Assembly: GCA_024679065.1 (NCBI GenBank) | Contig: JAGIQG010000024.1 | Location: 2,976,001-3,040,000 of the forward strand | DNA length: 64,000 nucleotides | Origin: Sphyrna mokarran | Taxonomy: Eukaryota | Direction of reading: 5' to 3' | In this document: piece after piece, positions 15,001 to 64,000 of the stretch | Layout of the letters: every line of letters starts with the position of its first letter | Position numbering within the stretch: position 1 is the stretch's first letter | The notes under the pieces: model-generated | Seen by the model: the letters and a program-made list of their open reading frames with translations, nothing else | Database searches by the model: none | Told to the model about the DNA's origin: nothing | Made by a program: the position numbers and the translations under genes

Positions 15001-15080
15001 GCAGCACAGGTACCAGAGCTCAGGTATCAATACACTGGGAGCACAGGTATCAATATACTGGCAGCACAGTTACTAATACT
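12047..15080 (+). repeat. 37-bp minisatellite, about 80 copies (AATACACTGGGAACACAGGTATCACAGCACAGGTATT)
   Basis: Direct tandem units without spacers; variant positions gaacac/gaacat/gagcac and ggtatt/gctatt. Confidence 0.98.
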
Positions 15081-15097: not shown

Positions 15098-18000
15098 AGA
15101 GCAACACAGCACGGGAAACAGGCCCTTCGGCCCAACGAGCCCGCGCCACCGTCATAACTATTTAGTAGCAATTCCATTATCATAATATAAAATTAGGTTA
15201 TTCCTAATATGGAAGACTCTCACTATAGGGACAATTTGTTTCCCAATCAGCCTAAGAGCGAATTTTTGGGTTGTGGGAGGAAACCGGAGCGCCCGGAGAA
15301 AACCCACTCAACCACGGGGAGAACGCGCAAACTCCCGCAGACACCGGCCCAATTCCAAGTGTCTGCACAGCCACATCGATCGTCTCTGAGCTGTCATGGT
15401 GCCCTTCAGATGGTCCACATAAAGCACTCATTTACGACATGAGGTACCAGGCAACCCATGAATCAACATCCAAGAGCTGTCCTCGCACCACCTGCCGAAT
15501 GCATGCTCATTGTTGGTCAAGTATGGACCGAATTACCTGTGGAAAAAAAGCCGTAGTTAAACAGTCCTACTATATCCCTCTATCTGCATAACGCTCATGT
15601 GGCTGTCCAAGAGACCCTTAAACAGCCCTAGCGTGCCTGTTCCCACCACCTTACTCGGCAGTGCATTCCACACCCCCACTACCCTTTGTGTGAAAAACTG
15701 CCCTCTAATATTCGTCTTATACTTAGCCCCCCTCACCCTAAGGCCATGACCCCTCGTCCTATCCATTTCTGAAAGTGGAAAAAGTTTACCTCCATTTACT
15801 CTATCTATACCCCTTATAAGCTTATACACCTCTATGAGATCCCCTCTAAGCCGACGTCTTTCAAGGGAAAACAACCCCAGTCTATTTAATCGTTCCTCAT
15901 AAGACAGTCCTTCCATACCAGGCAGCATCTTGGTAAACCTCCTCTGCACTCTCTCCAAGGACTCCACATCCTTCCGATAGTACGGCGACCAGAACTGGAC
16001 GCAGTATTCCAAGTGAGGCCTAACCAAATTTCTATACAACTGCAACATCAAACTCCTACTCTTGTATTCTATACCCTTTTCTATGAAAGCTAACATACTA
16101 TACGCCTTCTTTATCACCTTCTCCACCTGTGAGGACACTTTCAGAGACTTGTGAACCTGCACCCCCAAGTCTCTCTGCATCTCTATGCTACGTATAGTTT
16201 TACCTTTTATCCTATAACTCTCCTCTACATTTTTCCGGCCAAAATGCATCACCTCGCATTTATCCGGATTAAATTCCATTTGCCATCTATCTGCCCAGTC
16301 TACCAACCTATCTATGTCCTGTTGTATTGCCTGGCCCTGCTCCTCTGTACCCGCCAATCCAAGCATCTTAGTGTCATCAGCAAATTTGCTGATCTCCCCA
16401 CCTACCCCAACTTCCAAGTCGTTTATGTAGACCACAAATAGAAGAGGACCTAGTACTGAGCCTTGTGGCACTCCACTAGTGACAGGCTTCTAGCCGGAAA
16501 AAGAGCCTTCCACTACTACCCTCTGTCTCCTCCTCCCGAGCCAGTTCTCGACCCATCTACATACCCGACCCTGTATCCCATGCGCCTTCACCTTCTCTAT
16601 CAGTCTACCATGAGGAACCTTGTCAAACGCCTTACTGAAATCCATGTAGACGCCATCAACAGCCTGTCCTTCATCAACTGTTTTTGTCACTTCTTCAAAA
16701 AATTCCACCAGATTCGTAAGACAAGACTTCCCCTTGACGAAGCCATGCTGCGTATCCCTGATCAGATCGCAGCGCTCCAGATGCTCATACATCCTGTCCC
16801 TAAGTATCCTCTCCATTAGCTTACCTATAACTGAAGTCAAGCTCACCGGCCTATAGTTCCCTGGGTTATCCCTCTGACCTTTTTTAAACAACAGTACTAC
16901 ATTTGCTATCCTCCAGTCCTCTGGGACCTCACCTGTGTCCAAGGAAGAGACAAAGATTTGCGTCAGAGGCCCAGCTAGGTCTTCCCTCAACTCCCTTAGC
17001 AGCCTGGTGTAAATGCCATCAGGCCCCGGAGCTTTATATGTCTTTAAGCTGCCTAACAGCCCCAACACCTCTTTCCTCGTAATCTTTATTTCCCTCAACT
17101 GATCCTCAACTTTGTCAACATCAGCAACAGACATCTGGCCAGTCTCCTGTGTGAATACTGACGCAAAGTATTCATTCAGGATATCCCCCATTCCCTCAGG
17201 CTCTAAGCATAGATCCCCTCCTCTGACACTGAGAGGTCCAATCTTGCCTCTAACCATCCTTTTGCTCCTTACATAGGTGTAAAATGCCTTTGGATTTTCC
17301 TTAATCCTACCTGCCAGAGCCACCTCGTGGCCCCTTTTTGCCTTTCTAACACCCCTTTTAAGATCCCGTCTACCCTCTCTATAAGCTTCCAGCGCTGTCT
17401 CAGTCCCCAGTTGCCTAGATCTAATGTAAGCCTCTCGCTTCTTCCTGATCAAGTCCTCAATATCCCTGGTAAGCCACGGTTCTCTAATCCTACCTTTCCC
17501 ATCCTTCCTCCTTGCCGTCACGTATCTTTCCTGCAGAGCGTTTAGTTTTCCCTTGAAAGACTCCCACATGTACCTCATCGACCTGCCCTCGAAAAGCTTA
17601 TCCCAGTCGGTATCTTTAAGATCTTGCCTAATCTGGCTGTATCTAGCCCTCCCCCAGTTAAATACCTTCCCTTTTGGGCCAGTCTCATCCTTTTCCATTA
17701 ATATCCTAAAGCAGACAGAGTTGTGATCACTATTTGACACCTGCTCTCCAACCTCGACGTCAACCACCGGCCTGGCTCATTCCCCAGAACCAAATCCAGT
17801 ATAGCCCCCTCTCTAGTCGGGCCATCCACATACTGCTCCAAGGACCCTTCCAAAACACACTGTACAAATTCCTCCCCGTCCACTCCTACAGCTCTGGGCA
17901 CTCTCCAATCTACTCCAGGAAAATTGAAATCTCCCACTACTACTACCCTATTTTTCCTACACTTATCTAAAATGTCCCTGCATATCCCTTCTTCCACGGC

Positions 18001-18462
18001 CCGCGGGCTGTTGGGCGGTCTGTAGTAAACACCCAACAGAGTAACCACTCCCTTCCTATTCCTCAACTCCACCCATAGAGACTCAATTCCTAAATCATCC
18101 ATACCTCCCTCCCTCTGCACTGCTATGATGTTGTCCTTAACTAATAAAGCCACTCCCCCGCCTCTCCTCACACCAACTCTGTCATGCCTAAAACACTTAT
18201 ATCCTGGAATATTCAATTGCCAGTCTTGCCCCTCCTTCAACCACGTCTCGGTCACCGCCACCACTTCTAAACTCCTCGTGAACATTATTGCCTTCAGTTC
18301 ATCTGTTTTGCCAGTCACACTCCTCGCATTAAAACACATGGACTGAAGACCCTCAGCTCTCAGATATTCCTTTCTACCTTCTGGTGTTACCCTATCATCC
18401 CTCTCTCTCCCACTCCCAGTTCCCTCTCTCTCCCCACCCTCTCTCCCTATTAGTTTAAACAC
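15098..18462 (-). mobile_element. CR1 LINE: whole ORF2 (APE endonuclease + RT, frameshifted) with SINE-containing 3'UTR; truncated at the end of ORF1
   Basis: ORFs 17698-18462 (CFNARS, VTETW, GDFN), 16490-17767 and 15557-16471 (KFADD). Confidence 0.97.
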
Positions 18463-18540: not shown

Positions 18541-18948
18541 TTTTGATTTGATTTATTATTTGATTTATTATTTATTTTGAAATTGAGTGTAGAATGTAAT
18601 GTTACGGTCATAGGGTGTAGAGAAAGATCAACTTACTGCAAGGTAGGTCCATTCAAAAATTTGACAGCAGCAGGGAAGAAGCTGTTTTTGAGTCGGTTAG
18701 TATGTGACCTCATCTTTTGTATCTTTTTCCTGACGGAAAAAGATGGAAGAATATCCAGGGTGCATGGGGTCCTTAATTATGCTGGCTGCTTTGCCAAGGC
18801 AGTGGGAAGTGTAGCCAGAGTCAATGCATGGGAGCATGATGTAGTTATTTTGTAGTCTTTTTGCGCCTTTTGTAGTTGTTTTGTGGCCTTGGGCAGAGCA
18901 GGAACCAGACTAAGTTGTGATACAACCAGAAAGAATGCTTTCTATGCT
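18541..18948 (-). mobile_element. Rex1/Babar-type LINE 3' fragment
   Basis: Same sequence family as 51700-52570; (atcaa)n tail. Confidence 0.75.
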
Positions 18949-19559: not shown

Positions 19560-22297
19560 AGAACAAGTAAGAACATAAGAAATAGGAGCAGGAGTAGACT
19601 ATCCAGCCCCTCGAGTCTGCCCCACCGTTCAATAAAATCATGGCTGATCTGCAATGGTTCAGTACCACTTTCTCGCTTTCTCCCCGTAATCCTTAATTCC
19701 CTTGTCAGTCAAAAACTTATCCACACTTCACTTAAATATATTCAAAGAACAAAGATGAAAAAACAAAACAGTACGGGAAACAGGCCCTTCGGCCCAACGA
19801 GCCTGCGCCGCCACCCCGATGTTCCTACCTCTACCCACGATCCCTGTCTATGTGCATAGATCTATGGATTAAGAACCAAATTTGAGACAATCTAGAGAGA
19901 ATTTGTTTTGCCAATTAGCCTAAGAGCACATTTTTGGGATGTGGGAGGAAACCGGAGCACTCGGAGAAAACCCACGCAAGCACGGGGAGAATGTGCAAAC
20001 TCCCACAGACACAGGCCCAAATCCATGTATCTCCACAGCACAGCGATAGTCACTGAGCTGTCGTGTTGCCCATCAAATGGTCCAAGTCAAGCATACACTA
20101 ATGACGTGAAGCACTAGAATACTCTCGAAAAAATCCAAGAGCAGCCCTCTCACGACCCATCGCGTGTATGCCCCTCGTTAGACAACGAGGTGGACCAAAG
20201 CACCTGTAGGATAAAAACAAGTACATCAATATCATCATCTATTTACACACTTCCCAGGGACTCCCAAGGCTCATGATCCCTATTTTAAATCAGATTTCTA
20301 TACCCCTCCATTCCCATTCTGTTCATGTACCCATCTAAGTATTTCTTAAATAACTCCAGAGCGCCTGCCTCCACCACTTTACTTGGCAGCGCATTCCATA
20401 CCCCCACCACCCTCTGTGTGAAAAAACTCTAACATCCAAATTATATTTTACCCCTCTCACCCTAAGCCCGTGACCCCTCGTGCTATTTGAGTCCATCCTA
20501 AGAAAAAGCTTAAGCCTGTTTACTCTATCGATACCCCTCATAATCTTGTACACTTCTATTAGATCTCCTCTACATCTACATCTTTCTAAGGAAAACAGTC
20601 CCAATTTGCCTAACCTCTCCTCGTAACTCAGACCTTCCATACCAGGCAGCATCCTGGTAAACTTCCTCTGCACTCTCTCCAGAGTCTCCATGTCCTTCCA
20701 GTAGTAAGGCGACCAGAACTGGACGCAGTATTCCAAATGAGGTCTAACCAGCGTTTTATACAACTGCAACATTAAAGGCCAGTCTTGTACTCTGTACCCC
20801 TTCCTATAAAGGCTAACATACCATATGCTTTCTTCACAACCTTCAGCACCTGCTCTGCCACCTTCAGAGACTTGTTCATCTGCACCCCCAGGTCCGTCTG
20901 CGTTTCTATACTCTTAATAGGTCTACCCTTTATCATCTACCTCCCCACTACATTCTTTCTCCCAAAATGCATCACCTCACATTTATCAGGATTGAATTCC
21001 ATCTGCCATCTATCTGCCCAAGCTACCAGCCTATCTGTGTCCTGCTGCATCGCCTGACAATGCTCCTCACTATCCGCAAGTCCAGCCATCTTTGTATCGT
21101 CTGCAAACTTGCTGATCACTCCACTTACTCCCTCTTCCAAGTCATTTATATATATTACAAATAGAAGAGGTCCCAGTACCGAGACCTGTGGCACACCACT
21201 AGTGACTGATCTCCAGCTAGAAAAACACCCTTCCACTATTACTCTCTGTCTCCTATTATTAAGCCAGTTACTTATCCACCTAGCTACCTGTCCTTGTATC
21301 CCATGAGCCTTGACCTTTTCAACTAAACTCCCATGCAGGACTTTGTCAAACCCTTTCTGAAATCCATATAGACGACATCAACGGCTCGCCCTTTGTCGAC
21401 TGTTTTTGTCATCTCCTCAAAAAATTCTACCAGATTTGTAAGGCACGATCTCCCCTTAACAAAGCCATGCTAAGTATCCCTAATCAGATCGCAACGCTCT
21501 AAGTGCCTACACATCCTATCTCTAAGAATCCCCTCCAACAGCTTCCCTACCACTGACGTCAAACTCACCGGTCTATAATTTCCAGGGTTATCCCTACTAC
21601 CCTTTTTAAACAACGGTACAACATTCAATGAGGAAGCCTCCACCACTTCATCAGGCAGAGAATTCCAAAGATTCACCACCCTTTGAGTGAAGAAATTCCT
21701 GCTCAACTCTGATCTGAACCGCATCGCCACCTCCTCCCTCCCCCCCCTCTCTATTTTGAGGCTGTGCTTTCTAGTCCTGCTATCTTTGCTAAGCGGGAAG
21801 AGTCTCTCATCGTCTACCCCATCCATCCCCTTCATTATCTTATACGTCTCTATAAGATCCTCTCTCAGCCTTCTAAACTCCAACGAGTACAAACCTAGCC
21901 TATTCATTCTCTCCTCATAATCCAACGCCCTCATCTCTGGTATCACCCTAATGAACTTTCTCTGCACCCACTCCAAGGCCAATATATCCTTCCTCAAATA
22001 CGGCAACCATAACTGCACACAGTACTCCAACTGCGGCCTCACCAGTACCCTGTACACCTGCAAAAGTACCTCCCTACTTTTATATTCTATCCCCCTAGCT
22101 AGAAAGGCCAATATTGCATTCGCCTTCTTGATCACCTGCTGCACCTGCAGACTGGATTTTTGCAATTCGTGCACAAAGACCCCCAGATCCCTCTGCACCG
22201 TCACATGCTGCAGCTTTTTGCCAGTTAAATAATAATCCTTCCTACTGTTATTCCTACCAGAGTGGATAAGCTTGCTAACATTATACTCCATCTGCCA
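19560..22297 (-). mobile_element. Host CR1 3' fragment (19560-19745 and about 21618-22297) split by a younger CR1
   Basis: ORF 21470-22291 N-part; (ttcttatg) tail at 19560-19580; approximate TSD a(t/c)attcaa. Confidence 0.85.
19746..21620 (-). mobile_element. 5'-truncated CR1 with SINE-containing 3'UTR
   Basis: RT ORFs 20937-21236 and 20335-20772; 3'UTR near-identical to 26960-27485. Confidence 0.95.
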
Positions 22298-24135: not shown

Positions 24136-24956
24136 CAACAGCATTAAGTCATGATGTTGATCTGGAGAACTGATGCAGACACAATGAGCTGAATGGTCTC
24201 CTGCTACACTGTAACAATTATGTGATTAAACTAAGCCTGTAGAACTGCCACCTATTCTACAATACAAGGACAGCTTTGTATTTTTGTGCACCATCGGGTT
24301 CTTGCAAATTTTGTAGTGAATTTCCACTCTGGTGGATTCCTCACTTCCAAGTCTGCAGTGAAACATCTTCAACTTTTTCTCTAAGGTTTCTTTTTAGCTG
24401 CACATCTCTCTGATAAGTCTTCAGTTTTCATTCTTTGGGATGTTGTTCCGGGTTAATGCATGAGATGTTATCCTTCATATCTGTTGATCACCACAACTGA
24501 TCACCATGATATTATTGCCATTGATCATCATCACCAATGTGATATTCTTTAGAAGATGCCACTGTTGCCAATCATGTTGTGTTATGATGCACTGTGGCCT
24601 CTCAATGATGAGAACCAGTATCTTTTAACTAATAGCAATTCTCTAGTTACTGCCTTACAGGAAAGCTGTTTACTTAGTGTTCTTTACAAACTGTTTTGTG
24701 TTTATTACCATGTAATTGTATGCGTCATACTGACTGATGTCTCACCTTAGCCCTTGTTTTGCTGAGTACCTTTCTGTTAGGATGGCACACACACAGCAGG
24801 TGGTTAGATTGTCTCTTGTTGGTGATGACTATTGCCTGACTTTTGTGTGGCACTAATATTACTTCTCAATTATCAACTCAATGAAGAGTAAAATAGAAGT
24901 GGACAATACTGAAATACTCAGCAAGTTAGGAGGTATCTCCAGAGAGAAATAGCTAG

Positions 24957-27485
24957 GCACGTGGGACTCTTTCAAGGCAATACTGAAAATATTGCAAGAA
25001 AGATATGTGCCGGCTAAGATGAAAGATGGGAAAGGTAGGATTAGAGAGCTGTGGATTACTAGGATATTGAGGACTTGGTTAGGAAGAAAAGAGAAGCATA
25101 TGATAGGTCAAAGCAGCTGGGAATGGAGACAGCGTTAGAGGAATATAGACAGAGTAGGAGGGAGCTCAAACGGGGAGTTAGAAAGGCAAAAGGGGGCATG
25201 AAATGATTTGGCGAATAGGATTAAGGAAAATCCAAAGGCTTTTTACTCCTATGTTAGGAATAAAGAGTGGTTCGAGGAAAAATTGGACCTCTTAGGGACA
25301 GAAGAGGGGAACTGTGCTTAGAGCCTGAGGGAATGGGGGAGATCCTGAATGAATACTTTGCGTCGGTATTCACGAAGGAGAGGGGCTTGTTGACAGCTCC
25401 TGTCTCTGAGGGAGCTGTAGACCAGTTGACAGAAATATCCATACTGAGGGAGGAAGTGTTAGAGCTTCTAGATAGCATTAAAACTGATAAATCTCCGGGG
25501 CCTGATGGCATTTATCCCAGACTGCTTAGAGAGGTGCAAGGTGAAATTGCTGGGCCTCTGACGCAAATCTTTGTCTTTTTGGATACAGGTGAGGTCCCAG
25601 AGGACTGGAGAATAGCTAATGTTGTACCGTTGTTTAAAAAGGGTGGTAGGGATAACCCTGGAAATTATAGACCGGTGAGTTTGACGTCAGTGGTAGGGAA
25701 GCTGTTGGAGGGGATTCTTAGAGATAGGATGCATAGGCACTTAGAGCGTTGCGATCTGATTAGGGATACACAGCATGGATTTGTTAAGGGGAGGTCGTGC
25801 CTTACAAATCTGGTAGAATTTTTTAAGGAGGTGACAAAAACAGTGGACGAAGGGCGAGCCATTGATGTCGTCTATATGGATTTCAGTAAGGCATTTGGCA
25901 AAGTTCCTGATGGGAATCATGAGGTTAGTGGAGAAGGTCAAGGCTCATGGGATACAAGGACAGGTAGCTAGGTGGATAAGTAACTGGCTTGGTAAAGGGA
26001 GACAGAGAGTAATAATGGAAGGGTGTTTTTCTAGTCGGAGGTCAGTCACTAGTGGTGTGCCGCAGGTCTTGGTACTGGGACCTCTTCTATTTGTAATATA
26101 TATAAATGACTTGGAAGAGGGAGTAAGTGGAGTGATCAGCAAGTTTGCAGATGATACAAAGATGGCTGGACTTGCGGATAGTGAGGAGCATTGTCAGGCG
26201 ATGCAGCAGGACATAGATAGGCTGGTAGCTTGGGCAGACAGATGGCAGATGGAATTCAATCCTGATAAATGTGAGGTGATGCATTTTGGGAGAAGAATGT
26301 AGCAGGGAGCTATATGATAAAGGGTAGGCGTATTAATAGTATAGAAATGCAGACGGACTTGGGGGTGCAGGTGAACAAGTCCCTGAAGGTGGCAGAGCAG
26401 GTGGAGAAGGTTGTGAAGAAAGCATATGGTATGCTAGCCTTTATAGGAAGAGGTATAGAGTACAAGAGCTGGCCTTTAATGTTGCAGTTGTATAAAACGT
26501 TGGTTAGACCTCATTTGGAATACTGCATCCAGTTCTGGTCGCCTTACTACTGGAAGGACGTGGAGACTCTGGAGAGAGTGCAGAGGAGGTTTACCAGGAT
26601 GCTGCCTGGTATGGAAGGTCTGAGTTACGAGGAGAAGTTAGGCAAATGGGGCTGTTTTCCTAGAAAGACGTAGACTTAGAGGAGATCTAATAGAGGTGTA
26701 CAAGATTATGAGGGGTATAGATAAACAGGGTTAAGCTTTTTCCTAGGATGGCTCGAATAGCACGAGGGGTCACAGGCTTAGGGTGAGGGGGGTAAGGTAT
26801 AATTTGGATGCTGGAGGGGGTTTTTTCACACAGAGGATGGTGGGGGTATGGAATGCACTGCCAAGTAAAGTAGCAGAGGCAGGCACTCTGGAGTTATTTA
26901 AGAAATACTTAGATGGGCACATGAACAGAATGGGAATGGAGAGGTATAGAAAACTGATTTAAAATAGGGATCATGAGCCTTGGGAGTCCCTGGAAGTGTG
27001 TAAATAGATGATGATATTGATGTACTTGTTTTTATCCTACAGGTGCTTTGGTCCACCTTGTTGTCTAACAAGGGGCATACACACGATGGGTTGTGAGGGC
27101 TGCTCTTGGATTTTTTCGAGAGTATCCTAGTGCTTCACGTCGTTAGTGTACGCTTGACCTGGACCATTTGATGGGCAACACGACAGCTCAGTATCGCTGT
27201 GCTGTACAGATACATGGATTTGGGGCCAGTGTCTGTGGGAGTTTGCGCATTCTCCCCGTGCTTGCGTGGGTTTTCTCTGGGTGCTCCGGTTTCCTCCCAC
27301 ATCCCAAAGATGTGCTCTTAGGCTAATTGACAAAACAAATTCTCCCTAAATTGTCTTAAATTTAGTTTTTTAATCTATAGATCTGTAAACATGGACAGGG
27401 ATCACGGGTAGAGGTGGGAACATCGGGGTGGTGGCGCAGGCTCATTGGGCCGAAGGGCCTGTTTCCTGTGCTGTTTTGTTCTTTA
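24957..27485 (+). mobile_element. 5'-truncated CR1 with SINE-containing 3'UTR, inserted into a Penelope pLTR remnant (about 24885-24955 and 27500-27625)
   Basis: ORFs 25267-25971, 25862-26302 (KFADD), 26314-26673; tail gggccgaagggcctgtttcc...(ttgttct). Confidence 0.95.
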
Positions 27486-27771: not shown

Positions 27772-28212
27772 GGCCGGCTCTGGGGTTCCGGGCCCGGGTG
27801 CGGGGCTGCTGCCGGCTCTGGGGTTCCGGGCCCGGGGGCGGGGCTGCTGCCGGCTCTGGGGTTCCGGGCCCGGGGGGGCTGCTGCCGGCTCTGGGGTTCC
27901 GGGCCCGGGGGCGGGGCTGCTGCCGGCTCTGGGGTTCCGGGCCCGGGGCTGCTGCCGGCTCTGGGGTTCCGGGCCCGGGTGCGGGGCTGCTGCCGGCTCT
28001 GGGGTTCCGGGCCCGGGGCTGCTGCCGGCTCTGGGGTTCCGGGCCCGGGTGCGGGGCTGCTGCCGGCTCTGGGGTTCCGGGCCCGGGTGCGGGGCTGCTG
28101 CCGGCTCTGGGGTTCCGGGCCCGGGTGCGGGGCTGCTGCCGGCTCTGGGGTTCCGGGCCCGGGTGCGGGGCTGCTGCCGGCTCTGGGGTTCCGGGCCCGG
28201 GTGCGGGGCTGC
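27772..28212 (+). repeat. GC-rich 38-bp minisatellite, about 12 units (GCCGGCTCTGGGGTTCCGGGCCCGGGTGCGGGGCTGCT)
   Basis: Direct tandem units, some with internal deletions. Confidence 0.95.
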
Positions 28213-28214
28213 GC

Positions 28215-28410
28215 CTACGCAGTTGTGGTAATGACGGGAACGAGCTTGCCTATGCCGGCAATGACGGGAATCAGCCTGCGCAGTACCGGTAATGACGGGA
28301 ATGAGCCTGCGCAGTGCCGGCAATGACGGGAACGAACCTGTGCGGTGCCGGCAATGACGGGAACGAGCCTGCGCACTGCCAATTGGCTCTCAGAGTTTTA
28401 GGCGGGGAAT
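28215..28410. promoter_or_regulatory. About 31-bp tandem repeat (about 5 units; GCAGTGCCGGCAATGACGGGAACGAGCCTGC) plus CCAATTGG and GC box; promoter-like
   Basis: Each unit has a TGACG CRE half-site and several have an NRF1-like GCCTGCGCA; CpG retained. Confidence 0.55.
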
Positions 28411-28587: not shown

Positions 28588-29370
28588 TTTGATTTGATTT
28601 ATTATTGTCACATGTATTAATATACAGTGAAAATTATTGTTTCTTGCGTTCCATACAGACAAAGCATACCATTCATAGAGAAAGAACGGAGATAGTGTAG
28701 AATATCGTGTTACAGTCAGAGTGTAGAGAAAGATCAACTTAATGTGAGGTAGGTCCATTCAAAACTTTGATGGCAGCAGCGAAGAAGCTGTGACCTCAGA
28801 CTTTTGTATCTTTTTCCCAACGGAAGAAGATGGAGGAGAGAATGTCCGAGGTGCATGGGGTCCTTAATTATGCTGACTGCTTTGCTAAGGTAGCGGGAAG
28901 TGTAGACAGAGTCAATGGATGGAAGCCTGGTTTGTGTGATAGACTGGGTTTATTTCATGACCCTTTGTAGTTTCTTGCAGTCTTAAGCAGGCAAGGAGCC
29001 ACATCAAGCTGTGATGCAACCAGAAAAAATGGTTTCTATGCCGCATCTGTAAAAGTTAGTGAGAGTCGTAGCTGACATACCAAATTTCCTTGATCTTCTG
29101 AGAAAGTAGAGCATTGGTGGGCTTTCTGAACTGTAGTGTTGGCGTCGGGTGGAGGGGGAGGGGGAACTAGGACAGGTTGTTGGTGATCTAAAAACTTGAA
29201 GCTCTCGACCATTTCTACTTCACCCCCATGACAGGGACATGTCCTCCACCACACTTGTTGAAGTCGATAACTATCTCATCCATTTTGTTGACTTTGAGGA
29301 AGAAATTATTGTCATTGCACCTGTTCAGCAGATTCTCTATCTCTTTCTTGTACTTGTCATTGTTTGAGTC
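28588..29370 (-). mobile_element. Rex1/Babar-type LINE 3' fragment
   Basis: YKKEIENLLNRCNDNNFFLKVNKMDEIVIDF, VEMVESFKFL; (atcaa)n tail. Confidence 0.85.
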
Positions 29371-31829: not shown

Positions 31830-33120
31830 CTTAAGAACATAAGAACAAGGAGCAGCAGTAGGCTATCTGAGCTCTCGAGTCTGCTCCACCATTCAATAAG
31901 ATCATGGCTGATCTTTTCATGGACTCAGCTCGACTACCCACCCACTCACCATAATCCTTACTTCCTTTACTGTTCAAAAATTTATCTTTCCTTGCCTTAA
32001 AAACATTCGAAGAGGTAGCCTCAACTGCCTCACTGGGCAGGGAATTCCAGAGATTCACAACCCTTTGGGAGAAGAGGTTCCTCCTCAAGTCAGTCCTAAA
32101 TCTGCTCCCCCTTATTTAGAGCCATGCCCCCTAATTCTAGTTTCACCTGCCAGTGGTAACAACCTCCAAGCTTCTATCTTATCTAATCCCTTCATCATTT
32201 TATATATTTCTATAAGATCTCCCCTCATTCTTCCAATTCCAATGAGTATAGCCCCAGTTTATCAGTCTCTCCTCATAAGCCCAACCCTTATAACTCCGGA
32301 ATCAACCTAGTAAATCTCCTGTGCACACTTCCCAGTGCCAGTTTATCCTTCCTCAAGTAAGGTAACCAAAACTGTACACAGACCTCCAATGGCCCCACCA
32401 TCACCTACTAATCCCTCTAACCTCTCCTGGGACATTAAGGGGCAATTTAGCACGGCCAATTAATCTAACCCGCACATTTTTGGACTGAGAAAGGAAACCA
32501 GAGCATCCGGAGAAAACCCACACAGACACGAGGAGGATGTGCAAACTCCACACAGAGAGTGACCCAAGTCGGGAATGGAACCCAGGTCCTTGGAGCTGTG
32601 AAGTAGCAGTGCTAACTACTGTGTTACCATGCCTCCCAAACTGTATACAACTGCAAATAACCTCACTGTTTTTAAACTCCATCCCTCTAGCAATGAAAGA
32701 CAAAATTCCATTTGAAATTTTAATTACCTGCTGCACCTGCAAACCAATATTTTGCGATTCATGCACAGGGACTCCCAGGTCCCTCTGCACAACAGCATGC
32801 TGCAATTTTTTAACCATTTAAATAGTCCATTTTGCTGTTATTTGTACCAAAATGGTTGACCTCATATTCATCAACATTGTACTCCATCTGCCAGACTCTC
32901 GCCCATTCACTTAAAACTATCTATTTCCTTTGCAGTCTTCCAATCTCCTCTGCACACTTTGCTCTACCACTCATCTTAGAGTATTCTGCAAATTTTGAAA
33001 CACTGCACTTGTTCTCAACTCCAAATTATCGATGTTAGTTGTAAATAGTTGTGGTCCTAACGCTGATCCCTGAGGCACACCATTAATCACTGATCGCCAA
33101 TCAGAAAAACACCCACAACC
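31830..33120 (-). mobile_element. CR1 3' fragment with a nested HE1 SINE (about 32392-32635, -)
   Basis: ORFs 31831-32088, 32401-32817 (CR1 reading into SINE) and 32971-33186 GVPQGSALGP. Confidence 0.85.
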
Positions 33121-35627: not shown

Positions 35628-38600
35628 TAAAGAACAAAGGAGCAGGAGGTCATCGATCCCCTTAACCCTATTGGCTTTGGCTCGCTGGGCTGAGGTGAGA
35701 GCAGGTTTAAGCAGAATGTGCTACTGGTTTTCAGTTGCGTTCACACCTCCAAAGGTGTTCCTGACAATGGCAGGGATTATGGGAAGGTGCCTCACCTGCA
35801 TACGATGTCATATGTGGGAGTTCCTGGAGGCAAGACCTCTCCCGAAAGTCCATTTATGCGTCAAATGTTTGGAGCTGCAGCATCTGAGGGCTCGGGCCAA
35901 GCAACTAGAGCGGCGATTGGAAGATGCATTTTTAGTCAGGAAGGACAGGGCAATCATGGAAGGGAGGCAGAGTAAGGTGGCAGACCCAGAGCCTAAGCAG
36001 GGGGGTAACCTGATCCTTACAGGTGGATTACTGTAAGGAAGGGGAAAAAGGAGAGGGGGAACAGTCCAAAGACTTTCCCAGTGGCAGCCCCCCAAAATAC
36101 CGAGGGCGGAGGGGTAAAAAAGATAAGGCAGAAGGACCTGAGTACCTCAAAGGGGAGGAAAGGGGCTAGAAGAGAGATAGTGGTGGGGAATGGGAGGGTT
36201 AAAGGAATAGATAGACGCTTCTGTGGTCAAAGACGGGACTCCAGGATGGTAGTTTGCCTTCCTGGAGCAGGGTTGCAAGATGTGTCTGACAGGGTAGAGG
36301 GCATTTTGAAGGGTGAGGTGATCCAGGCTGATGTGATTATTCACGTAGGAGAGAAGGATGTAGGAAGGAAGAGCAGGGAGGATATACGAAGGCAGTTCAG
36401 GGAGTTGGGGGGTAGGCTGAAGAGCAGGGCCTCCAGGGTGGCAATCTCAGGGCTGCTTCCAGGGCCAAGTAATAGCGGGGCCAGGAAAAATGAGATCCTA
36501 CAGCTGAATGCATGGCTGAAGGATTGGTGTAGGGCAGAGGGTTTCATATTTGTGGATAACTGGGAATTCTTCCTGAAAGAAGGGCACCTGTATAAAAGGG
36601 ACGGGGAACACTTAAATGGGAAGGGCGTGAATATCTTAGCTGGGAGGTTAGCTGGAGTGCTTCAGCAGGGTTTAAACTAATATGGAGGGGGGAGGGGCTG
36701 AGACTGACAGCTCGGTAGAGAGTGAGATGGGAGATAGAGTAAGCTTGGATGAGAAGAAATACACCAGGGAGAAGGAGGTTCTGAGTAGGCTTGGAGGTCT
36801 GGAGTGTGTCTGTTTCAATGCGAGGAGCGTAACAGGAAAAATAGATGAACTTAGGGCCTTAATGTTTGCGAGGAACTTGGATGTGGTTGCAGAGACGGAG
36901 ACGTGGTTAAAGGAAGGGGAGCAGTGGCAACTGAATATTCCTGGGTATAAGTGTTTCAGGCGTGACAGAGGAGGGTCCAGAAGAGGGGGGGGAGTGGCGT
37001 TGTTAGTTAGGGAGAGCATCACAGCGGTGCAGAGGAAGGACAATTCAGAGGAGTTAGGAGTGGAGTCGCTGTGGGTGGAGTTGAGGAATAAAAAGGGGGC
37101 AATCACTATGCTAGGGATGTATTATAGGCCACCCAACAGCCCGCCGAAGAAGGCATATGTAAAGACATTTTGGATAGGAGCAGAAAGAACAGAGTCGTTA
37201 TAGTGGAAGATTTTAATCTCCCTAGGGTGGATTGGAAGGTATCTAGAGCTGGGGGTTTGGACGGGCAGGAATTTGTAAAATGTGTACTGGAAGGATTATT
37301 GGAGCAGTATGTAGCTAGCCCGACTAGAGAAGGGGCTATATTGGATTTAGTTCTGAGTAACGAGCCAGGGCTGGTTGATGTTGTAATAGGGGAACATGTG
37401 GCTAACAGTGACCACAATTCTGTCTATTTTAGGATACAGATGGAAAAGGATGCTTGTTGCCCTAGGGGCAGGGTGCTGAATTGGAGGAAGGCTAACTATG
37501 GTCGGATTAGGCAGGAATTTATGGAAACTGATTGGGAATGGTTGTTCAAGGGTAAGTCCACGCTTGGCATGTGGGACTTTTTCAAGGGAATACTGAAAAT
37601 GTTGCAATAAAGATATGTGCCAGCCAAGAGGAAAGATGGGAGAGGTAGGATTAGAGAGCTGTAGATTACTAGGGATATCGAGGACTTGGTTAGGAAGAGA
37701 GCTGTATATTAGGTCAAAGCAGCTGGGAATGGAGAGAGCATTGGAGAAATATAGAGAGAGTAGGAGGGAGCTCAAACAGGGAGTTAGAAGGGCAAAAAGG
37801 GGGCATGAAATGATTTTGCCAGATAGGATTAAGGAAAATCCAAAGGCTTATTACTCCTATGTTAGAAATAAAAGGGTGGTTAGAGGAAAAATCGGACCTC
37901 TTAGGGATAGAGGAGAGGAACTGTGGTTAGAGCCCAAGGGAATGGGGGAGATCCTGAATGAATACTTTGCGTCGGTATTCACAAAGGTGAGGAGCTTGTT
38001 GACCGGTCCGATCTCTGAGGGAGCTGTGGACCAATTGAGGGAAATATCCATACCGAGGGAAGTGTTAGAGCTTCTAGGTAGCATTAAAACTGATAAATCT
38101 CCGGGGCCTGATGGCATATATCCCAGGCTGTTTACTGAGGCACAAGGTGAAATTGCTGGGCCTCTGACGCAAATCTTTGTCTCTTCTTTCGACACAGGTG
38201 AGGTCCCAGAGGACTGGAGAATAGCTAATGTTGTACCGTTGTTTACAAAGGGTAGTAGGGATAACCCTGGAAATTATAGGCCGGTGAGTTTGACGTCAGT
38301 GGTAGGGAAGCTATTGGAGGGGATTCTTAGAGATAGGATGCATAGGCACTTAGAGCGTTGCGATCTGATTAGGGATACGCAGCACAGATTTGTTAAGAGG
38401 AGGTTGTGTCTTACGAATCTGGTAGAATTTTTTGAGGAGGTGACGAAAATGGTTGACGAAGGGCGAGCCGATGATGTCGTCTATATGGATTTCAGTAAGG
38501 CGTTTGACAAAGTCCCTCATGGGAGTTTAGTTGAAAAGGTCAAGGCTAATGGGATACAAGGACAGGTAGCTAGATGGATAAATAACTGGCTTAGTAATAG

Positions 38601-40043
38601 GAGACAGAGAGTAATAGTGGAAGGATGTTTTTCTACCTGGAGGTCGGAGACTAGTGGTGTGCCACAGGGCTGGGTACTGGGATCTCTTCTATTTGTAATA
38701 TATATAAATGACTTGGAAGAGGGAGTAAGTGGAGTGATCAGCAAGTTTGCAGACGATACAAAGATGGCTGGACTTGCGGACAGTGAGGAGCATTGTCAGG
38801 CGATGCAGCAGGACATTAGATAGGTTGGTAGCTTGGCAGACGGAATTCAATCCTGATAAGTGCGAGGTGATGCATTTTGGGAGGAAGAATGTAGGGGGAG
38901 GTATATGATAAAGGGTAGACCTATTAAGAGTATAGAAATGCAGAGGGACCTGGGGGTGCAGGTCCACAAGTCTCTGAAGGTGGCAGAGCAGGTGCAGAAC
39001 GTTGTGAAGAAAGCGTATGGTATGCTAGCCTTTATAGGAAGGGGTATAGAGTACAAGAGCTGGCCTTTAATGTTGCAGTTGTATAAAACGCTGGTTAGAC
39101 CTCATTTGGAATACTGCGTCCAGTTCTGGTCGCCTTACTACCGGAAGAACGTGGAGACTCTGGAGAGAGTGCAGAGGAGGTTTACCAGGATGCTGCCTGG
39201 TATGGAAGGTCTGAGTTACGAGGAGAGATTAGGCAAATTGGGACTGTTTTCCTTAGAAAGACGTAGACTTAGAGGAGATCTGATAGAGGTGTACAAGATT
39301 ATGAGGGGTATAGATAGAATAAACAGGGTTAAGCTTTTTCCTAGGATGGACTCAAATAGCACGAGGGGTCACTGGCTTAGGGTGAGGGGGGTAAGGTATA
39401 ATTTGGATGCTAGAGGGAGTTTTTTCACACAGAGGGTGGTAGGGGTATGGAATGCGCTGCTAAGTAAAGTGGTGGAGGCAGGTACTCTGGAGTTATTTAA
39501 GAAATACTTAGATGGGCACATGAACAGAATGGGAATGGAGGGGTATAGAAAACTGATTTAAAATAGGTATCATGAGCCTTGGGAGTCCCTGGGAAGTGTG
39601 TAAATAGATGATGATATTGATGTACTTGTTTTTATCCTACAGGTGCTTTGGTCCACCTTGTTGTCTAACAAGGGGCATATACACGATGGGTCGTGAGAGG
39701 GCTGCTCTTGGATTTTTTTTGAGAGTATCCTAATGCTTCACATCATTAGTGTACGCTTGACCTGGACCATTTGATGGGCAACATGACAGCTCAGTGACTA
39801 TTGCTGTGCTGTGCAGATACGTAGATTTGGGCCTGTGTCTATGGGAGTTTGCGCGTTCTCCCTGTGCTTGCCTGGGTTTTCTCCAGGTACTCCGGTTTCC
39901 TCCCACATCCCAAAGATGTACTCTTAGGCTAATTGGCAGAACAAATTCTCCCTAAATTGTCTCAAATTTGGTTTCAATCCATAGATCTATAAAAAATAGA
40001 TAGGAATCACAGGTAGAGGTAGGATAAATGAGGTGGTAGCGCA
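35628..40043 (+). mobile_element. Near full-length CR1 LINE: 5'UTR, ORF1 (zinc finger/leucine zipper + SGNH esterase-like, about 35767-36680), ORF2 (APE + RT, about 36682-39561, disrupted), SINE-containing 3'UTR lacking the terminal hairpin
   Basis: CIRC...CVKC-LELQHL; VVCLPGA, IIHVG, ISGLLP, DGEHLN; CFNARS/ETW; KFADD. Confidence 0.96.
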
Positions 40044-59374: not shown

Positions 59375-61258
59375 GTTAGGGCAAGATTTGGGCCAGCCAG
59401 GGACAGTAGTGGGAAGTTGTGTGTGGAGCCTGAAGAGATTGGAGAGACACTGAATGAGTATTTTTCGTCAGTATTCACGCAGGAAAAAGTCAATGTAGCT
59501 GAGGACAATACTGAGATACAGGCTTTTAGAGTAGACAGGATTGAGGTACATAAGGAGGAGGTGTTAGCAATTCTTTGAGGGTATGAAAATAGATAAGTCT
59601 CCTGGGCCGGATGGGATTTATCCTAGGATTCTTTGGGAGGCTAGGGAGGAGTTGCAGAGTCTTTGGCTTTGATCTTCATGTCGTCATTGGTTACAGGTAT
59701 AGTGCCGAAGACTGGAGGATAGCAAATGTTGTCCCCTTGTTCAAGAAGGGGAGTAGAGACCATCCTGGCAATTATAGACCAGTGATCTTTACTACTGTTG
59801 TGGGCAAAGTTTTGGAAAGAATTATAAAAGAAATAAAAGAATTATAAGTCCAACAAGGGGCATACACGCAATGGGTTGTGAGAGGGCTGCTCTTGGATTT
59901 TTCGAGAGGAGCCTTTTGCCTCATGTCATTAGTGTATGCTTAAACAGGACCAGTTGATGGGCAACACGACAGCTCAGTGACTATCACTGTTGCTGTGCAG
60001 ATACAGGAATTTGGGCTGGTATCTGTGGGACTTTGCGTATTCTCCCCATGCTTGCGTGGGTTTTCTCCGGGTGCTCCGGTTTCCTTCCACACCCCAAAGA
60101 TGTGCTCTTAGGCTGATTGGTGAAACGAATTGTCCCTAAATTATCTTTTCAATTTGGTTTCAATGCAGATTTCCATTAACATAGCCAAGGATCATGGGTG
60201 GAAGTGGGAATGTTAAAATGGCGGTGCAAGCTCCTTGGGCTGAAGGGCCTGTTTCCCACACTGTATTGTTCTTTGTTCTTTGATTTATAATCATCTAGAG
60301 AGAAATAAATTGATTAGGGATAGTCAACACAGTTTTGTGAAGAATAGGTCATGCCTCACAAACCTTATTGAGTTCTTTGAGAAGGTGAGCAAAGAGGTGG
60401 ATAAGGGTAAAGCAGTTGATGTGGTGTATATGGATTTTAGCGAAGCATTTGATAAGATTCTCCATGGTAGGCTACTGTGGAAAATACAGATGCATGGGAT
60501 TGAGGATGATATGGCAGTTTGGATCAGGAATTGGCTAGCTGATAGAAGACAGAGGGTGGTGGTTGATGGGAAATATTCAACCTGGAGTTCAGTAACAAGT
60601 GGTGTACCTCAGGGATCTGTTTTGGGGCCACTGCTGTTTGTCATTTTTATAAATGATCTAGATGAGGGTATAGAAGGATGGGTTAGTAAATTTGCTGACG
60701 ACACCAAAGTCAGAGGAGTTCTAGACAGTGAGGATGGATATTACAGTTTGCAGAGGGACACAGATAACCTGCCGAGCTGGGCTGAGAGGTGGCAAATGGA
60801 GTTTAATGCAGAAAAGTATGAAGTGATTCACTTTAGAAAGAGTAACAGGATTACAGAATATAGGGTCAATGGAAGGACTCTTGGTAGTATCGACAAGTGG
60901 AGAGAACTCGGTGTACGGGTGCATAGATCCCTGAAAGTTGGTATCGAGGTTGTTAAGGAGGCGTAAGGTGTGTTAGCTTTTATTGGTAAAGGGATTGAAT
61001 TTTGGAATAGTGAGATCATATTGCAACTGTAGAAAACGCTGGTGCAACTGCACTTTAAGTATTGTGTACAGTTCTGGTCGCCGCATTATAAGAAAGATAT
61101 GGAAACATTAGAAAGGGTGCAGAGGAGGTTTACCAGAATGTTGCCTGGTATGATGGGAAGGTCTTATGAGGAAAGGCTGAGGGACTTGAAGTTATTTTCG
61201 TTAGAGAGAAGAAGGATAAGAGGTGACCTAACTGAGGCATACAAGATGATGAGGGTGG
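59375..61258 (+). mobile_element. CR1 ORF2 fragment interrupted at about 59848-60280
   Basis: ORFs 59611-59847, 60280-60966 (KFADD), 61042-. Confidence 0.9.
59848..60280 (+). mobile_element. 3'UTR-only copy of the SINE-containing CR1 lineage
   Basis: Aligns with 27062-27485; has the terminal hairpin and (ttgttct)n tail. Confidence 0.85.
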
Positions 61259-61267
61259 AGAGTGAGA

Positions 61268-64000
61268 GCAAAGAACAAAGAGCAACACAGCACGGGAAAC
61301 AGGCCCTTCGGCCCAACGAGCCCATGCCGCCGTCCTAATGTCTTAATGACATATCCTTGACTTTAGGCTATGCCTATAGTTGAAGATTCCCATATTGGGA
61401 CCAATATAGGGACAATTTGTTACCCAATCAGCCTAAGAGCACATTTTTGGGATGTGGGAGGAAACCGGAGCACCCGGAGGAAACCCACGCAACCACGGGG
61501 AGAACGCGCAAACTCCCGCAGACACAGGCCCAAATCCATGTGTCAGCACAGCAACAGCGATAGTCTCTGAGCTGTCATGTTGCCCATCAGATGGTCCAGT
61601 TTAAGCATACACTGACGACGTGAAGCACTAGGCAACTCCTGAAGCAACCTCCAAGAGCAGCTCTCGCACGACATGCCGCATGCATGCCCCTTGTTGGTCA
61701 ACAAGGTGGACCGAATTGCCTGCGGAAACAAATAAGACTTAATTAAACATGCTAAAAAAAAACTAAGACATTCCCGAGACGAAACTAAAAGATAGTCTAC
61801 TACTATTTGGTCCTCCCGATATTCAAACAGTCCTGCTATATCCCTCTATCTGCAGACCGCTCATGTGGCTGTCCAAGAGACCCTTAAGCAACCCTAACGT
61901 GCCTGCTCCCACCCCTTACTCTGCAGTGCATTCTACACCCCCACTACCCTTTGTGTGAAAAACTGGCCTCTAATATTCTTCTTATACATAGCCCCCCTCA
62001 CCCTGAGCCCGTGACTCCTCTTTCTATCTATTTCTAATGGTGGAAAAAGCTTACCACCATTTACTCTATCTATACCCCTCATAATCTTATATACCTCTAA
62101 AAGATCCCCTCTCAGCCGACGTCTTTCAAAGGAAAACAACCCCAGTGTTTTCAATCTTTCCTCGTAAGACAGCCCTTCCATACCAGGCAGCATCCTGGTA
62201 AATCTCCTCTGCACTCTCTCCAGGGCCTCTACATCCTTCCTGTAGTACGGCGACCAGAACTGGACGCAGTACTCCAGATGAGGCCTAACCAACGTTCTAT
62301 ACACCTGCAACATCAGACTCCTACTCTTGTATTCTATACCCCTTCCTATGAAGGCTAACATACCATACGCTTTTTTTACCACATTCTCCACCTGTACTGA
62401 CACCTTCAGAGACTTGTGAACTTGCACCCCCAGGTCTCTCTGCATCTCTATACTCCGGATAGTTTTACCTTTTATCCTATAACTCCCCTCTACATTATTC
62501 CGGCCAAAATGCATCACCTCGCATTTATCCGGATTAAATTCCATTTGCCATCTATCTGCCCAATCTACCAGCCTATGTCATGTTGTATTGCCAGGCACTG
62601 CTCCTCAGTACCCGCCAATCCAATCATCTTAGTGTCATCAGCAAATTTGCTGATCACACCACCTACCCCCTCTTCCAAGTCATTTATATACACCACAAAT
62701 AGAAGGGGTCCTAGTACGGAGCCCTGTGGCACACCACTAGTGACAGACCTCTAGTTGGAAAAAGAGCCTTCTACTACTACCCGCTGTCTCCTCTTCCCAA
62801 GCCAGTTCTCAACCCATCTACATACCTGGCCCTGTATACCATGCGCCTTCACCTTTTCTATCAGCCTACCATGAGGGACCTTATCAAACGCCTTACTGAA
62901 ATCCATATAGACGACATCAACGGCTTGTCCTTCATCAACCGTTTTTGTCACCTCTTCAAAAAATTCCACTAGATTCGTAAGGCACGACCTCCCCTTAACG
63001 AAGCCATGCTGCGTATCCCTGATCAGATCGCAGCGCTCCAGATGCTCATACATCCTGTCCCTGAGGATCCTCTCCATTAGCTTACCTATAACTGAAGTCA
63101 AGCTCACCGGCCTATAGTTCCCTGGGTTATCCCTCTGACCCTTTTTAAACAACGGTACTACATTTGCAATCTTCCAGTCCTCTGGGACCTCCCCTGTGTC
63201 CAAAGAAGAGACAAAGATTTGCGTCAGAGGCCCAGCAATGTCATCTCTCACCTCCCTTAGCAGCCTGGGATAAATACCATCAGGCCCCGGAGCTTTATAA
63301 GTCTTTATGCTACCTAAAAGCCCCAACACTTCGTCCCTCGTAATGATTATTTCCTTTAACGGGTCCTCAAATTCCTCAAAGCCGGCATCAGACATCAGGC
63401 CCCTCTCCCGCGTGAATACCGACGCAAAGTATTCATTCAGGATCTCCCCCATTCCCTCAGGCTCTAAGCATAGTTCCCCTCCTCTGTCCCTGAGAGGTCC
63501 AATCTTCCCTCTAACCATCCTTTTGCTCCTTACATAGGAGTAAAATGCCTTAGGATTTTCCTTAATCCTACCTGCCAAAGCCATTTCGTGGCCCCTTTTT
63601 GCCTTTCTGACACCCCTTTTAAGATCCCGTCTACACTCTCTATATTTTTCCAGCGCTGCCTCTGTCCCCAGTTGCCTAGATCTAACGTACGCCTCCCGCT
63701 TCTTCCTGACCAAGTCCTCAATATCCCTAGTAACCCACGGTTCTCTAATCCTACCTTTCCCATCCTTCCTCCTTACCGGCACATGTCTTTCCTGCAAAAG
63801 TTTTAGTTTTCCCTTGAAAGACTCCCACATGTGCAGTGTCGACCTACCCTCGAACAGCTTATCCCAGTCGGTATCCCTAAGATCCTGCCTAATCTGGCTA
63901 TATCTAGCCCTCCCCCAGTTTAACACCCTCCCCTTAGGGCAGGCTTCATCTTTTTCCATTAATACCCTAAAGCAGACAGAGTTGTGGTCACTATTAGACA
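61268..64000 (-). mobile_element. CR1 LINE with SINE-containing 3'UTR (continues beyond the window)
   Basis: ORFs 62751-63959 and 61933-62544; closely related to 15098-18462. Confidence 0.96.

What the first reader, a model, noticed from the sequence alone, without database searches (positions are those of the whole stretch)
26960..27485. A CR1 LINE lineage that has captured a whole HE1-type SINE as its 3'UTR and keeps amplifying as a LINE-SINE chimera
Seen: five ORF2-bearing copies (15098-, 19746-, -27485, -40043, 61268-) and one 3'UTR-only copy (59848-60280) share an approximately 500-nt 3'UTR. Other CR1s here have about 100 nt. Its distal part (27173-27485) reads GGGCAACACGACAGCTCAGT..TATCGCTGTGCTG, which aligns to the tRNA-derived head of free HE1 SINEs (5331, 7984). 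It then has the V-domain GGAGTTTGCGCATTCTCCCCGTG...CCGGTTTCCTCCCACA and the GGGCCGAAGGGCCTG tail. The B box (GGTTCRA) is eroded. The module sits at the same place in at least two divergent ORF2 subfamilies, so it is inherited rather than independent SINE insertion. Established: HE1 SINEs borrow the HER1 LINE tail. Inference: this is the reverse flow, in which an autonomous LINE adopted its parasite (losing the Pol III promoter but keeping the V-domain) as its RT-recognition tail. This suggests the V-domain has a function in cis.
Basis: partly seen in the sequence, partly recalled or inferred. Interest (0 to 1): 0.75.

Follow-up and report, generated by a model that had tools for sequence, protein, structure and literature searches.

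The report
LINE that keeps a captured SINE
One branch of a common jumping-gene family (CR1 LINEs), likely from a shark or ray, carries in its tail region most of a short parasite element (a V-SINE) plus a likely splice site and a predicted branched RNA fold, and these parts stay far more alike between sub-branches than freely mutating sites do, so they likely do a job for the jumping gene itself.

Summary
Six copies share a 459-555-nt 3'UTR, against about 90 nt in three neighbouring CR1s. The five with ORF2 form one clade nested among short-UTR CR1s, and copy B sits as a single insert in an older LINE. The V-domain match to free SINEs is strong. The tRNA head match is real but modest; the B box is lost through a shared ~18-nt shortening. 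Between subfamilies, head and V-domain differ at 3/50 and 4/82 sites versus 23/67 four-fold ORF2 sites, so they look constrained inside an autonomous element.

Corrections: the last ~60 nt resemble sister CR1 tails more than free SINE tails, so 'adopted the SINE as its RT tail' is not supported. 'Keeps amplifying' is not shown.

Limits: one window, six copies, no genome, no reads, Repbase/Dfam and the original HE1 papers unseen. Nine literature searches found no prior description. New variant of a known kind.

The parts
24952..26962 (+). Copy A: 5'-truncated CR1 ORF2 (RT and C-terminal part, frameshifted), stop codon 26960-26962
   Evidence: homologous ORF2 of copy C has Exo_endo_phos and RVT_1
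26963..27016 (+). Proximal 3'UTR, fast-evolving (46-48% between subfamilies, almost wholly deleted in copy E)
27017..27043 (+). 3' splice-site-like signal: branch-point-like motif at -23, pyrimidine run, CAG|G (AG at 27041-27042); splicing untested
   Evidence: top or tied-top crude acceptor score among 177-478 AG sites in each of 5 copies; branch-like motif at -21 to -24 in 5 of 5, background 120 of 1082 AG sites
27049..27166 (+). Predicted three-way-junction RNA module: 7-bp closing stem, short hairpin, long imperfect arm; origin unknown
   Evidence: z -3.8 to -6.0 in 6 of 6 copies; no Rfam family
27173..27226 (+). Remodelled tRNA-derived SINE head: A-box remnant, B box lost
   Evidence: 3 of 50 fixed differences between subfamilies
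27227..27315 (+). V-domain of the captured SINE
   Evidence: a published V-SINE primer matches it by eye; 4 of 82 fixed differences
27316..27356 (+). Post-V segment still homologous to the free SINEs
   Evidence: z 0.9-4.2; covered by the SINE profile hit 27222-27351
27357..27425 (+). Fast-evolving spacer, no detectable match to free SINEs or short CR1 UTRs
   Evidence: 17 of 32 fixed differences
27426..27484 (+). CR1-type 3' tail (stem-loop region and 7-nt microsatellite end), likely RT-recognition site
   Evidence: role inferred from known SINE-LINE tail biology (PMC5499810 passages)
19750..21625 (-). Copy B, same subfamily as A; one insert inside an older CR1 family, 8-bp TSD-like repeat with one mismatch
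35630..40043 (+). Copy C, near full length: esterase ORF1 (36009-36680, upstream Cys-rich frame), ORF2 36676-39561, UTR lacking the tail; 5' boundary approximate
61268..64000 (-). Copy D, second subfamily; runs off the window
15098..18460 (-). Copy E, second subfamily; proximal UTR deleted up to the splice-site-like signal; 5' boundary approximate
59848..60282 (+). Copy F, UTR only, begins inside the module; a third UTR type, inserted in a short-UTR-type CR1
7984..8290 (+). Free V-SINE used as comparison (others at 5331+, 10156-, 32637-, 41520-)

Best explanation
This is a CR1 LINE lineage whose 3'UTR holds the head and V-domain of a V-SINE, likely gained once in an ancestor, lacking the B box and likely kept by selection on the LINE's own RNA, in front of a tail that is likely the LINE's own. 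Shown: one clade, one junction, travel as one unit, low divergence of head, V-domain and tail, and pairing-preserving change in the upstream module. Inferred: an ancestral element took up a cassette (splice-site-like signal, structured module, SINE head and body) by insertion or template switch upstream of its tail. Losing the internal Pol III promoter would have stopped the cassette from making a competing short RNA. The retained parts would act in cis on the Pol II LINE transcript, most likely as a terminal-exon-like and protein-binding platform that raises RNA processing, stability, export or RNP loading, while the tail serves target-primed reverse transcription.
For: ORF2 trees: 5 long-UTR copies on one branch, 100/100 and 94/98 with outgroups, nested among short-UTR CR1s. 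UTR splits mostly follow ORF2: ABCF|DE in 9 of 15 module, 9 of 18 spacer and 2 of 4 V-domain informative sites; ORF2 ABC|DE 131 of 153. Copy B's host LINE rejoins across the insert. Fixed differences ABC vs DE: four-fold 23/67, head 3/50 (p 2e-4), V 4/82 (p 3e-6), tail 4/43 (p 0.003), module 15/94 (p 0.008), spacer 17/32. After insertion V decays freely: 12/89 variable columns among A, B, C versus 93/1064 in ORF2, so the constraint lies in source elements. 17 of 104 informative V/post-V sites separate LINE copies from free SINEs. Module: real substitutions keep the fold better than the same changes placed at random (p 0.005, 0.0025, 0.005); 93% of 247 cells paired, 5 of 44 pairs with two-sided change. 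Tail nearer CR1 tails.
Against: Six decayed copies from one window, four lineages at most; segment borders were drawn after looking. Low head/V divergence could be module exchange between subfamilies; the 3 informative post-V sites group F with D/E. No structure-retention signal in head, V-domain or tail (p 0.11-0.86). Covariation is modest: 6/500 shuffles reach the pairing score, 30/500 the two-sided pairs, on a structure derived from these sequences. Two ORF2 windows of copy D fold as strongly as its module (z -4.9, -6.5). Tail preference is weak for copy F (37/59 to one SINE tail versus 35-40 of 55-57 to four CR1 tails). Splicing, expression and function are untested. The tree's root rests on family-X and distant copies.
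Confidence: 0.62

Rival explanations
1. One reading: the LINE swapped its whole 3' end for a complete SINE (template switch or read-through into a downstream SINE), and the SINE's LINE-derived tail is now the RT-recognition site.
For: SINE and LINE tails are related anyway (tail z up to 4.6 against a free SINE). No remnant of an older CR1 tail lies between stop codon and head (proximal UTR and module z at most 2.0 against short CR1 UTRs). SINEs switch tails often (PMC5499810, PMC4824008 passages), so a donor subfamily with a CR1-like tail may exist elsewhere in the genome.
Against: Tail identity of copy A: 35-39 of 54-56 to four short-UTR CR1s versus 30-32 of 55-58 to three free SINE tails. 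The tail profile ranks three CR1 tails at E 4e-6 and the best SINE tail at E 0.02. The spacer before the tail has no SINE match.
Confidence: 0.15
2. Passenger with module exchange: the SINE part is neutral cargo, and it looks conserved because subfamilies recently exchanged the head-V block by recombination.
For: Conserved SINE bodies have been proposed as recombination hot spots (PMC5499810 passage). Post-V sites group F with D/E while module and spacer group F with A/B/C. No fold-retention signal in head or V.
Against: It needs double crossovers bounded by the module (16% fixed differences) and spacer (53%) across at least three UTR types. The tail, beyond the spacer, is also conserved (4/43). 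It does not explain the module's pairing-preserving changes or the retained splice-site-like signal.
Confidence: 0.12
3. Spliced non-autonomous partner or exon trap: the cassette is a terminal exon; splicing from a donor in the LINE's 5' part or in a host gene yields a short ORF-less RNA that the LINE proteins copy, and its conservation reflects selection on that derivative.
For: Best or tied-best acceptor-like site in 5 of 5 ORF2 copies, with a branch-like motif at -21 to -24 although flanking sequence is unalignable. Copy E's deletion stops just before it. One UTR-only copy exists (F).
Against: Copy F starts inside the module, as a plain 5' truncation would. No copy in the window begins at the acceptor or joins it to an upstream donor. 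The best donor-like sites of copy C lie inside ORF2. The scores are crude and no read data were obtained. CR1s are not among the clades reported to make ORF-less bipartite derivatives (PMC5786205 passage).
Confidence: 0.08
4. Reverse reading: this LINE UTR is the source of the V-domain and free V-SINEs arose from it by gaining a tRNA promoter.
For: It would fit the proposal that SINE bodies come from LINE parts (PMC5786205 passages).
Against: The UTR also holds a decayed tRNA head. The clade is nested among short-UTR CR1s. V-SINEs occur in cnidarians, bivalves and many vertebrates (PMC4824008 passages). 0 of 66 distant CR1 loci hold the V-domain or module.
Confidence: 0.03

Closest known systems
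Canonical vertebrate CR1 LINEs (HER1 LINE of sharks and rays as named in PMC3747384's table)
   Same: Esterase ORF1, endonuclease plus RT ORF2, 5'-truncated copies, stem-loop and microsatellite tail. The highest-identity named ORF2 relatives are from cartilaginous fishes (71% Stegostoma, 55-63% rays and skates).
   Different: 3'UTR five to six times longer, with a SINE head, V-domain, structured module and splice-site-like signal. The HER1 sequence itself could not be compared.
V-SINE superfamily, HE1 family of sharks and rays (PMC4824008, PMC3747384 passages)
   Same: tRNA-derived head followed by the ~80-90-nt V-domain in the same order; 87 of 104 informative V/post-V sites shared with free SINEs of the window.
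   Different: No B box, part of an autonomous element, tail of another type than the window's free SINEs. Known flow is LINE tail to SINE; here a SINE body sits in a LINE.
LINE-derived SINE bodies and bipartite non-autonomous LINEs (Kojima 2018, PMC5786205 passages)
   Same: [quoted passage not shown]
   Different: That Repbase-wide comparison states that no sequence similar to conserved SINE bodies had been found; this is a LINE with one, but acquired from the SINE.
Chimeric L1-BovB element of cattle (PMC6036668 passages)
   Same: One retroelement inserted in another.
   Different: Described as a rearranged copy with little evidence of transcription, not as a lineage that diversified with the insert under constraint.

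Membership tests
CR1 LINE | ORF2 with AP endonuclease and reverse transcriptase | tested here: met
   PF03372 E 4.6e-8 and PF00078 E 3.6e-25 in copy C
CR1 LINE | Esterase-type ORF1 (canonical vertebrate CR1, PMC13343379 passage) | tested here: met
   PF13472 E 4.8e-8 at 36009-36677
CR1 LINE | 3' microsatellite end, no poly(A), 5' truncation | tested here: met
   Sequence of copies A, B, D, F; copy E ends in a short A run, copy C lacks its end
CR1 LINE | RT tree places it in the CR1 clade against named references | tested here: inconclusive
   Trees used window copies only; best named protein hits are cartilaginous-fish, bird and turtle RT-like proteins
V-SINE / HE1 | V-domain | tested here: met
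   Matches free SINEs. The published BivaV-SINE2 reverse primer matches by eye at 19 of 20 nt in A and 20 of 20 in C
V-SINE / HE1 | tRNA-derived head with intact A and B boxes | tested here: not met
   B box 4 mismatches, A box 2-3 mismatches in 6 of 6 copies (box consensus recalled); head homology modest
V-SINE / HE1 | Short, non-coding, amplifies on its own | tested here: not met
   5 of 6 copies are attached to ORF2 at one junction; F could be a truncation
V-SINE / HE1 | Identity to the published HE1 consensus | not testable with these tools
   Ogiwara 2002 not held; SINEBase supplements unreadable; no Repbase or Dfam
Known structured RNA families, including hammerhead and HDV-like ribozymes | Rfam match or catalytic core and nested pseudoknot | tested here: not met
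   No Rfam hit near gathering score for copies A and D. No hammerhead core in 6 of 6; loose HDV descriptor hits in 3 of 6 at discordant places (motifs recalled)

The most novel reading that the evidence does not exclude
The captured cassette is a working terminal exon: a CR1 lineage domesticated its Pol III parasite into a Pol II-spliced 3' module (splice site, new three-way-junction RNA, V-domain, tail) that controls its own RNA and can be spliced onto the LINE's 5' end or onto host exons to make RT-ready, ORF-less RNAs. It would be a case of a SINE conserved domain working in cis for an autonomous element.
Probability: 0.2. Interest if true: 0.82.

Novelty: new variant of a known kind. Interest (0 to 1): 0.6.

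Why it matters
Why SINE central domains such as V stay conserved for hundreds of millions of years is an open question; host benefit, recombination hot spot and help in LINE interaction are the three models listed in PMC5499810. Here the V-domain is constrained between source elements of an autonomous LINE, with no B box, and decays freely after insertion. That points to a role in the element's own RNA cycle and gives a direct assay: the same LINE with and without the domain. The upstream module is a candidate new structured RNA element in a vertebrate retrotransposon.

Tried and rejected
No genome is held for this window. Exact scans for the module-head junction found 0 stretches in viral contigs and 0 in metagenome contigs. 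Run search: 20 of 23 listed runs hold part of the UTR, 3 hold half the words or more (three organism labels, two studies; one may be the window's source). No read or contig layout was obtained, so copy number, expression and splice junctions stay open. Rfam, hammerhead and HDV-like readings rejected. The RNAalifold consensus was distorted by truncated rows and not used. Independent SINE insertion rejected. Earlier-findings look-ups: 0 by sequence, 0 holding all words. Nine literature searches listed no paper describing a CR1 with a V-SINE in its 3'UTR; only listings were seen for most hits, and most subscription papers, Ogiwara 1999 and 2002, Repbase and Dfam were out of reach.

Full report
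Observation. From the ORF2 stops the UTRs are 522, 535, 482, 555 and 459 nt; C has lost its tail. Three short-tailed CR1s have about 87-95 nt. Copy C is near full length, with an esterase ORF1 and an endonuclease plus RT ORF2. The highest-identity named relatives of its C-terminal ORF2 are from cartilaginous fishes, 55-71%; bird and turtle proteins are at 40-54%. No genome is held, so everything below rests on six decayed copies.

SINE homology. Against five free SINEs of the window, the V-domain (27227-27315) scores z 14.8-19.8 in four and 4.0 in the internally deleted fifth; the post-V segment scores 0.9-4.2; the spacer 27357-27425 has no match. A profile of four free SINEs finds all six copies at E 1e-19 to 4e-25. 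A primer printed for a bivalve V-SINE (supplement of PMC4824008, file 2; file 1 could not be searched) matches the segment by eye at 19 of 20 nt in A and 20 of 20 in C, which supports the label V. The label HE1 is recalled and fits the table in PMC3747384 (passages), but no HE1 consensus could be aligned. The head is weaker: z 0.6-3.1 by local alignment, best E 0.54 with a head-only profile, and p<0.05 in 8 of 12 ungapped 42-nt tests. The B box has 4 mismatches in all six copies against 0-3 in the free SINEs, and that stretch is about 18 nt shorter.

Inherited as a unit. The five ORF2-bearing copies form one branch with two subfamilies, ABC and DE, 77-80% alike in ORF2. With older CR1 families added, the branch (94/98) lies among short-UTR elements, so the long UTR is most simply a single gain; the root rests on those older copies. 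The module-head junction is at the same place in all six, and UTR sites mostly split ABCF against DE as ORF2 does; the three post-V sites group F with DE. Copy B interrupts an older CR1 whose halves rejoin around ORF2 piece, UTR and tail together, with an 8-bp repeat carrying one mismatch. Independent SINE insertion is therefore rejected.

Constraint. Counting only sites where at least two of A, B, C agree and D equals E, differences are 23/67 at four-fold ORF2 sites and 67/614 at codon positions 1 and 2. In the UTR they are 15/94 in the module, 3/50 in the head, 4/82 in V, 4/33 post-V, 17/32 in the spacer and 4/43 in the tail. Head and V are far below four-fold sites (p 2e-4, 3e-6) and no higher than protein-constrained positions. 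Among A, B and C the V-domain varies at 12/89 columns against 93/1064 in ORF2, so it is not a cold spot and copies are not protected after insertion; the constraint acts on source elements. Seventeen of 104 informative V/post-V sites separate LINE copies from free SINEs, which argues against conversion by those SINEs. Exchange between LINE subfamilies is not excluded. Segment borders were chosen after inspection.

The tail. The last 59 nt of A score z 8.8-13.1 against four short-UTR CR1s, 4.7 against a fifth, and 0.6-4.6 against free SINEs, two of which lack a full tail. Identities for A are 35-39 of 54-56 against 30-32 of 55-58; for F the gap is small. The tail profile ranks three CR1 tails at E 4e-6 and the best SINE tail at 0.02. 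The simpler reading is that head and body entered upstream of a CR1-type tail. A donor SINE subfamily with such a tail elsewhere in the genome remains possible.

(1) At 27017-27043 lies a pyrimidine run with CAG|G. It is the top or tied-top site on a crude acceptor score among 177-478 AG sites in each of five copies. A branch-point-like motif sits at -23, -24 and -21 in ABC, D and E, against a background of 120 of 1082 AG sites, although the flanking sequence is unalignable, and E's deletion of the proximal UTR stops just before it. Splicing is untested. (2) At 27049-27166 a predicted three-way junction folds at z -3.8 to -6.0 in all six copies, 0 of 200 shuffles each; E and the truncated F keep the closing stem region and long arm but not the short hairpin. 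Real substitutions from B to D, E and F keep the fold better than the same changes placed at random (p 0.005, 0.0025, 0.005 on 400 trials); head, V and tail show no such signal. On a hand-set structure, 93% of 247 cells pair and 5 of 44 pairs change on both sides, with 6 and 30 of 500 shuffles reaching those values; this is modest and partly circular. In B the module is the best-folding of 30 windows; in D two ORF2 windows fold as well. It matches no Rfam family and no hammerhead or consistent HDV-like pattern.

Mechanism. Shown: architecture, single junction, joint travel, constraint. Inferred: an ancestral CR1 gained a cassette upstream of its tail, the Pol III promoter was lost, and the remaining parts were kept because they help the LINE RNA, most likely as a terminal-exon-like and protein-binding platform for processing, stability, export or RNP loading (0.62). 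Rivals: full 3'-end swap with the SINE tail as RT site (0.15), neutral cargo with module exchange (0.12), spliced ORF-less derivative or exon trap as the selected unit (0.08), LINE as the source of V-SINEs (0.03). Present activity is not shown: copies have stops and frameshifts and A, B, C are 94-95% alike in ORF2.

Known and new. Flow from LINE tails to SINEs and module shuffling among SINEs are established (PMC4824008, PMC5499810, PMC11481361, passages). A Repbase-wide LINE-SINE comparison says no sequence similar to conserved SINE bodies had been found, while noting a tRNA-like sequence in one RTE group (PMC5786205, passages). A 2026 survey of vertebrate CR1-group elements has one main-text mention of UTR, about the 5' end, and one of SINE, in its references (PMC13343379, passages; supplements not examined). 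A cattle L1-BovB chimera is a loose precedent (PMC6036668, passages). PMC3531059 was seen in passages only; its supplements were unreadable. Nine searches listed nothing on this arrangement, but Ogiwara 1999 and 2002, Repbase and Dfam were not seen and may hold it.

Verdict. A real CR1 lineage with a constrained, promoter-dead V-SINE segment and a structured module for which no description was found. It is a CR1 by the features tested; the embedded part is V-SINE-derived but no longer a SINE. New variant of a known kind, interest 0.6.

Noticed in passing
window 12047-15052: 3-kb tandem array of a 37-bp unit (about 80 copies, 111-bp higher order), between a predicted tRNA-Gln gene at 11715-11786(-) and the 3' end of copy E.
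   Followed up: no
window 27773-28380: GC-rich 38-bp minisatellite (12 copies) followed by a 31-bp array (4.9 copies), about 290 nt downstream of copy A; possibly a CpG-island or promoter region.
   Followed up: no
window 62560-62740 (-): Inside ORF2 of copy D two 120-nt windows fold at z -4.9 and -6.5 (25 shuffles each); no ORF2 window of copy B does.
   Followed up: partly
window 3252-3571, 19568-19748 with 21620-22297, 31832-32400 (all -): An older CR1 family with a short UTR and a different tail, about 50% amino-acid identity to copy C; used as outgroup and host of copy B.
   Followed up: partly
window 40043: Copy C, the only near-full-length copy, stops just before the conserved tail stem-loop, an unusual 3' loss.
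   Followed up: no
window 28588-29368, 51707-52542, 58312-59132, 18585-18947: A further dispersed repeat family of about 800 nt, 72-76% alike, not classified.
   Followed up: no
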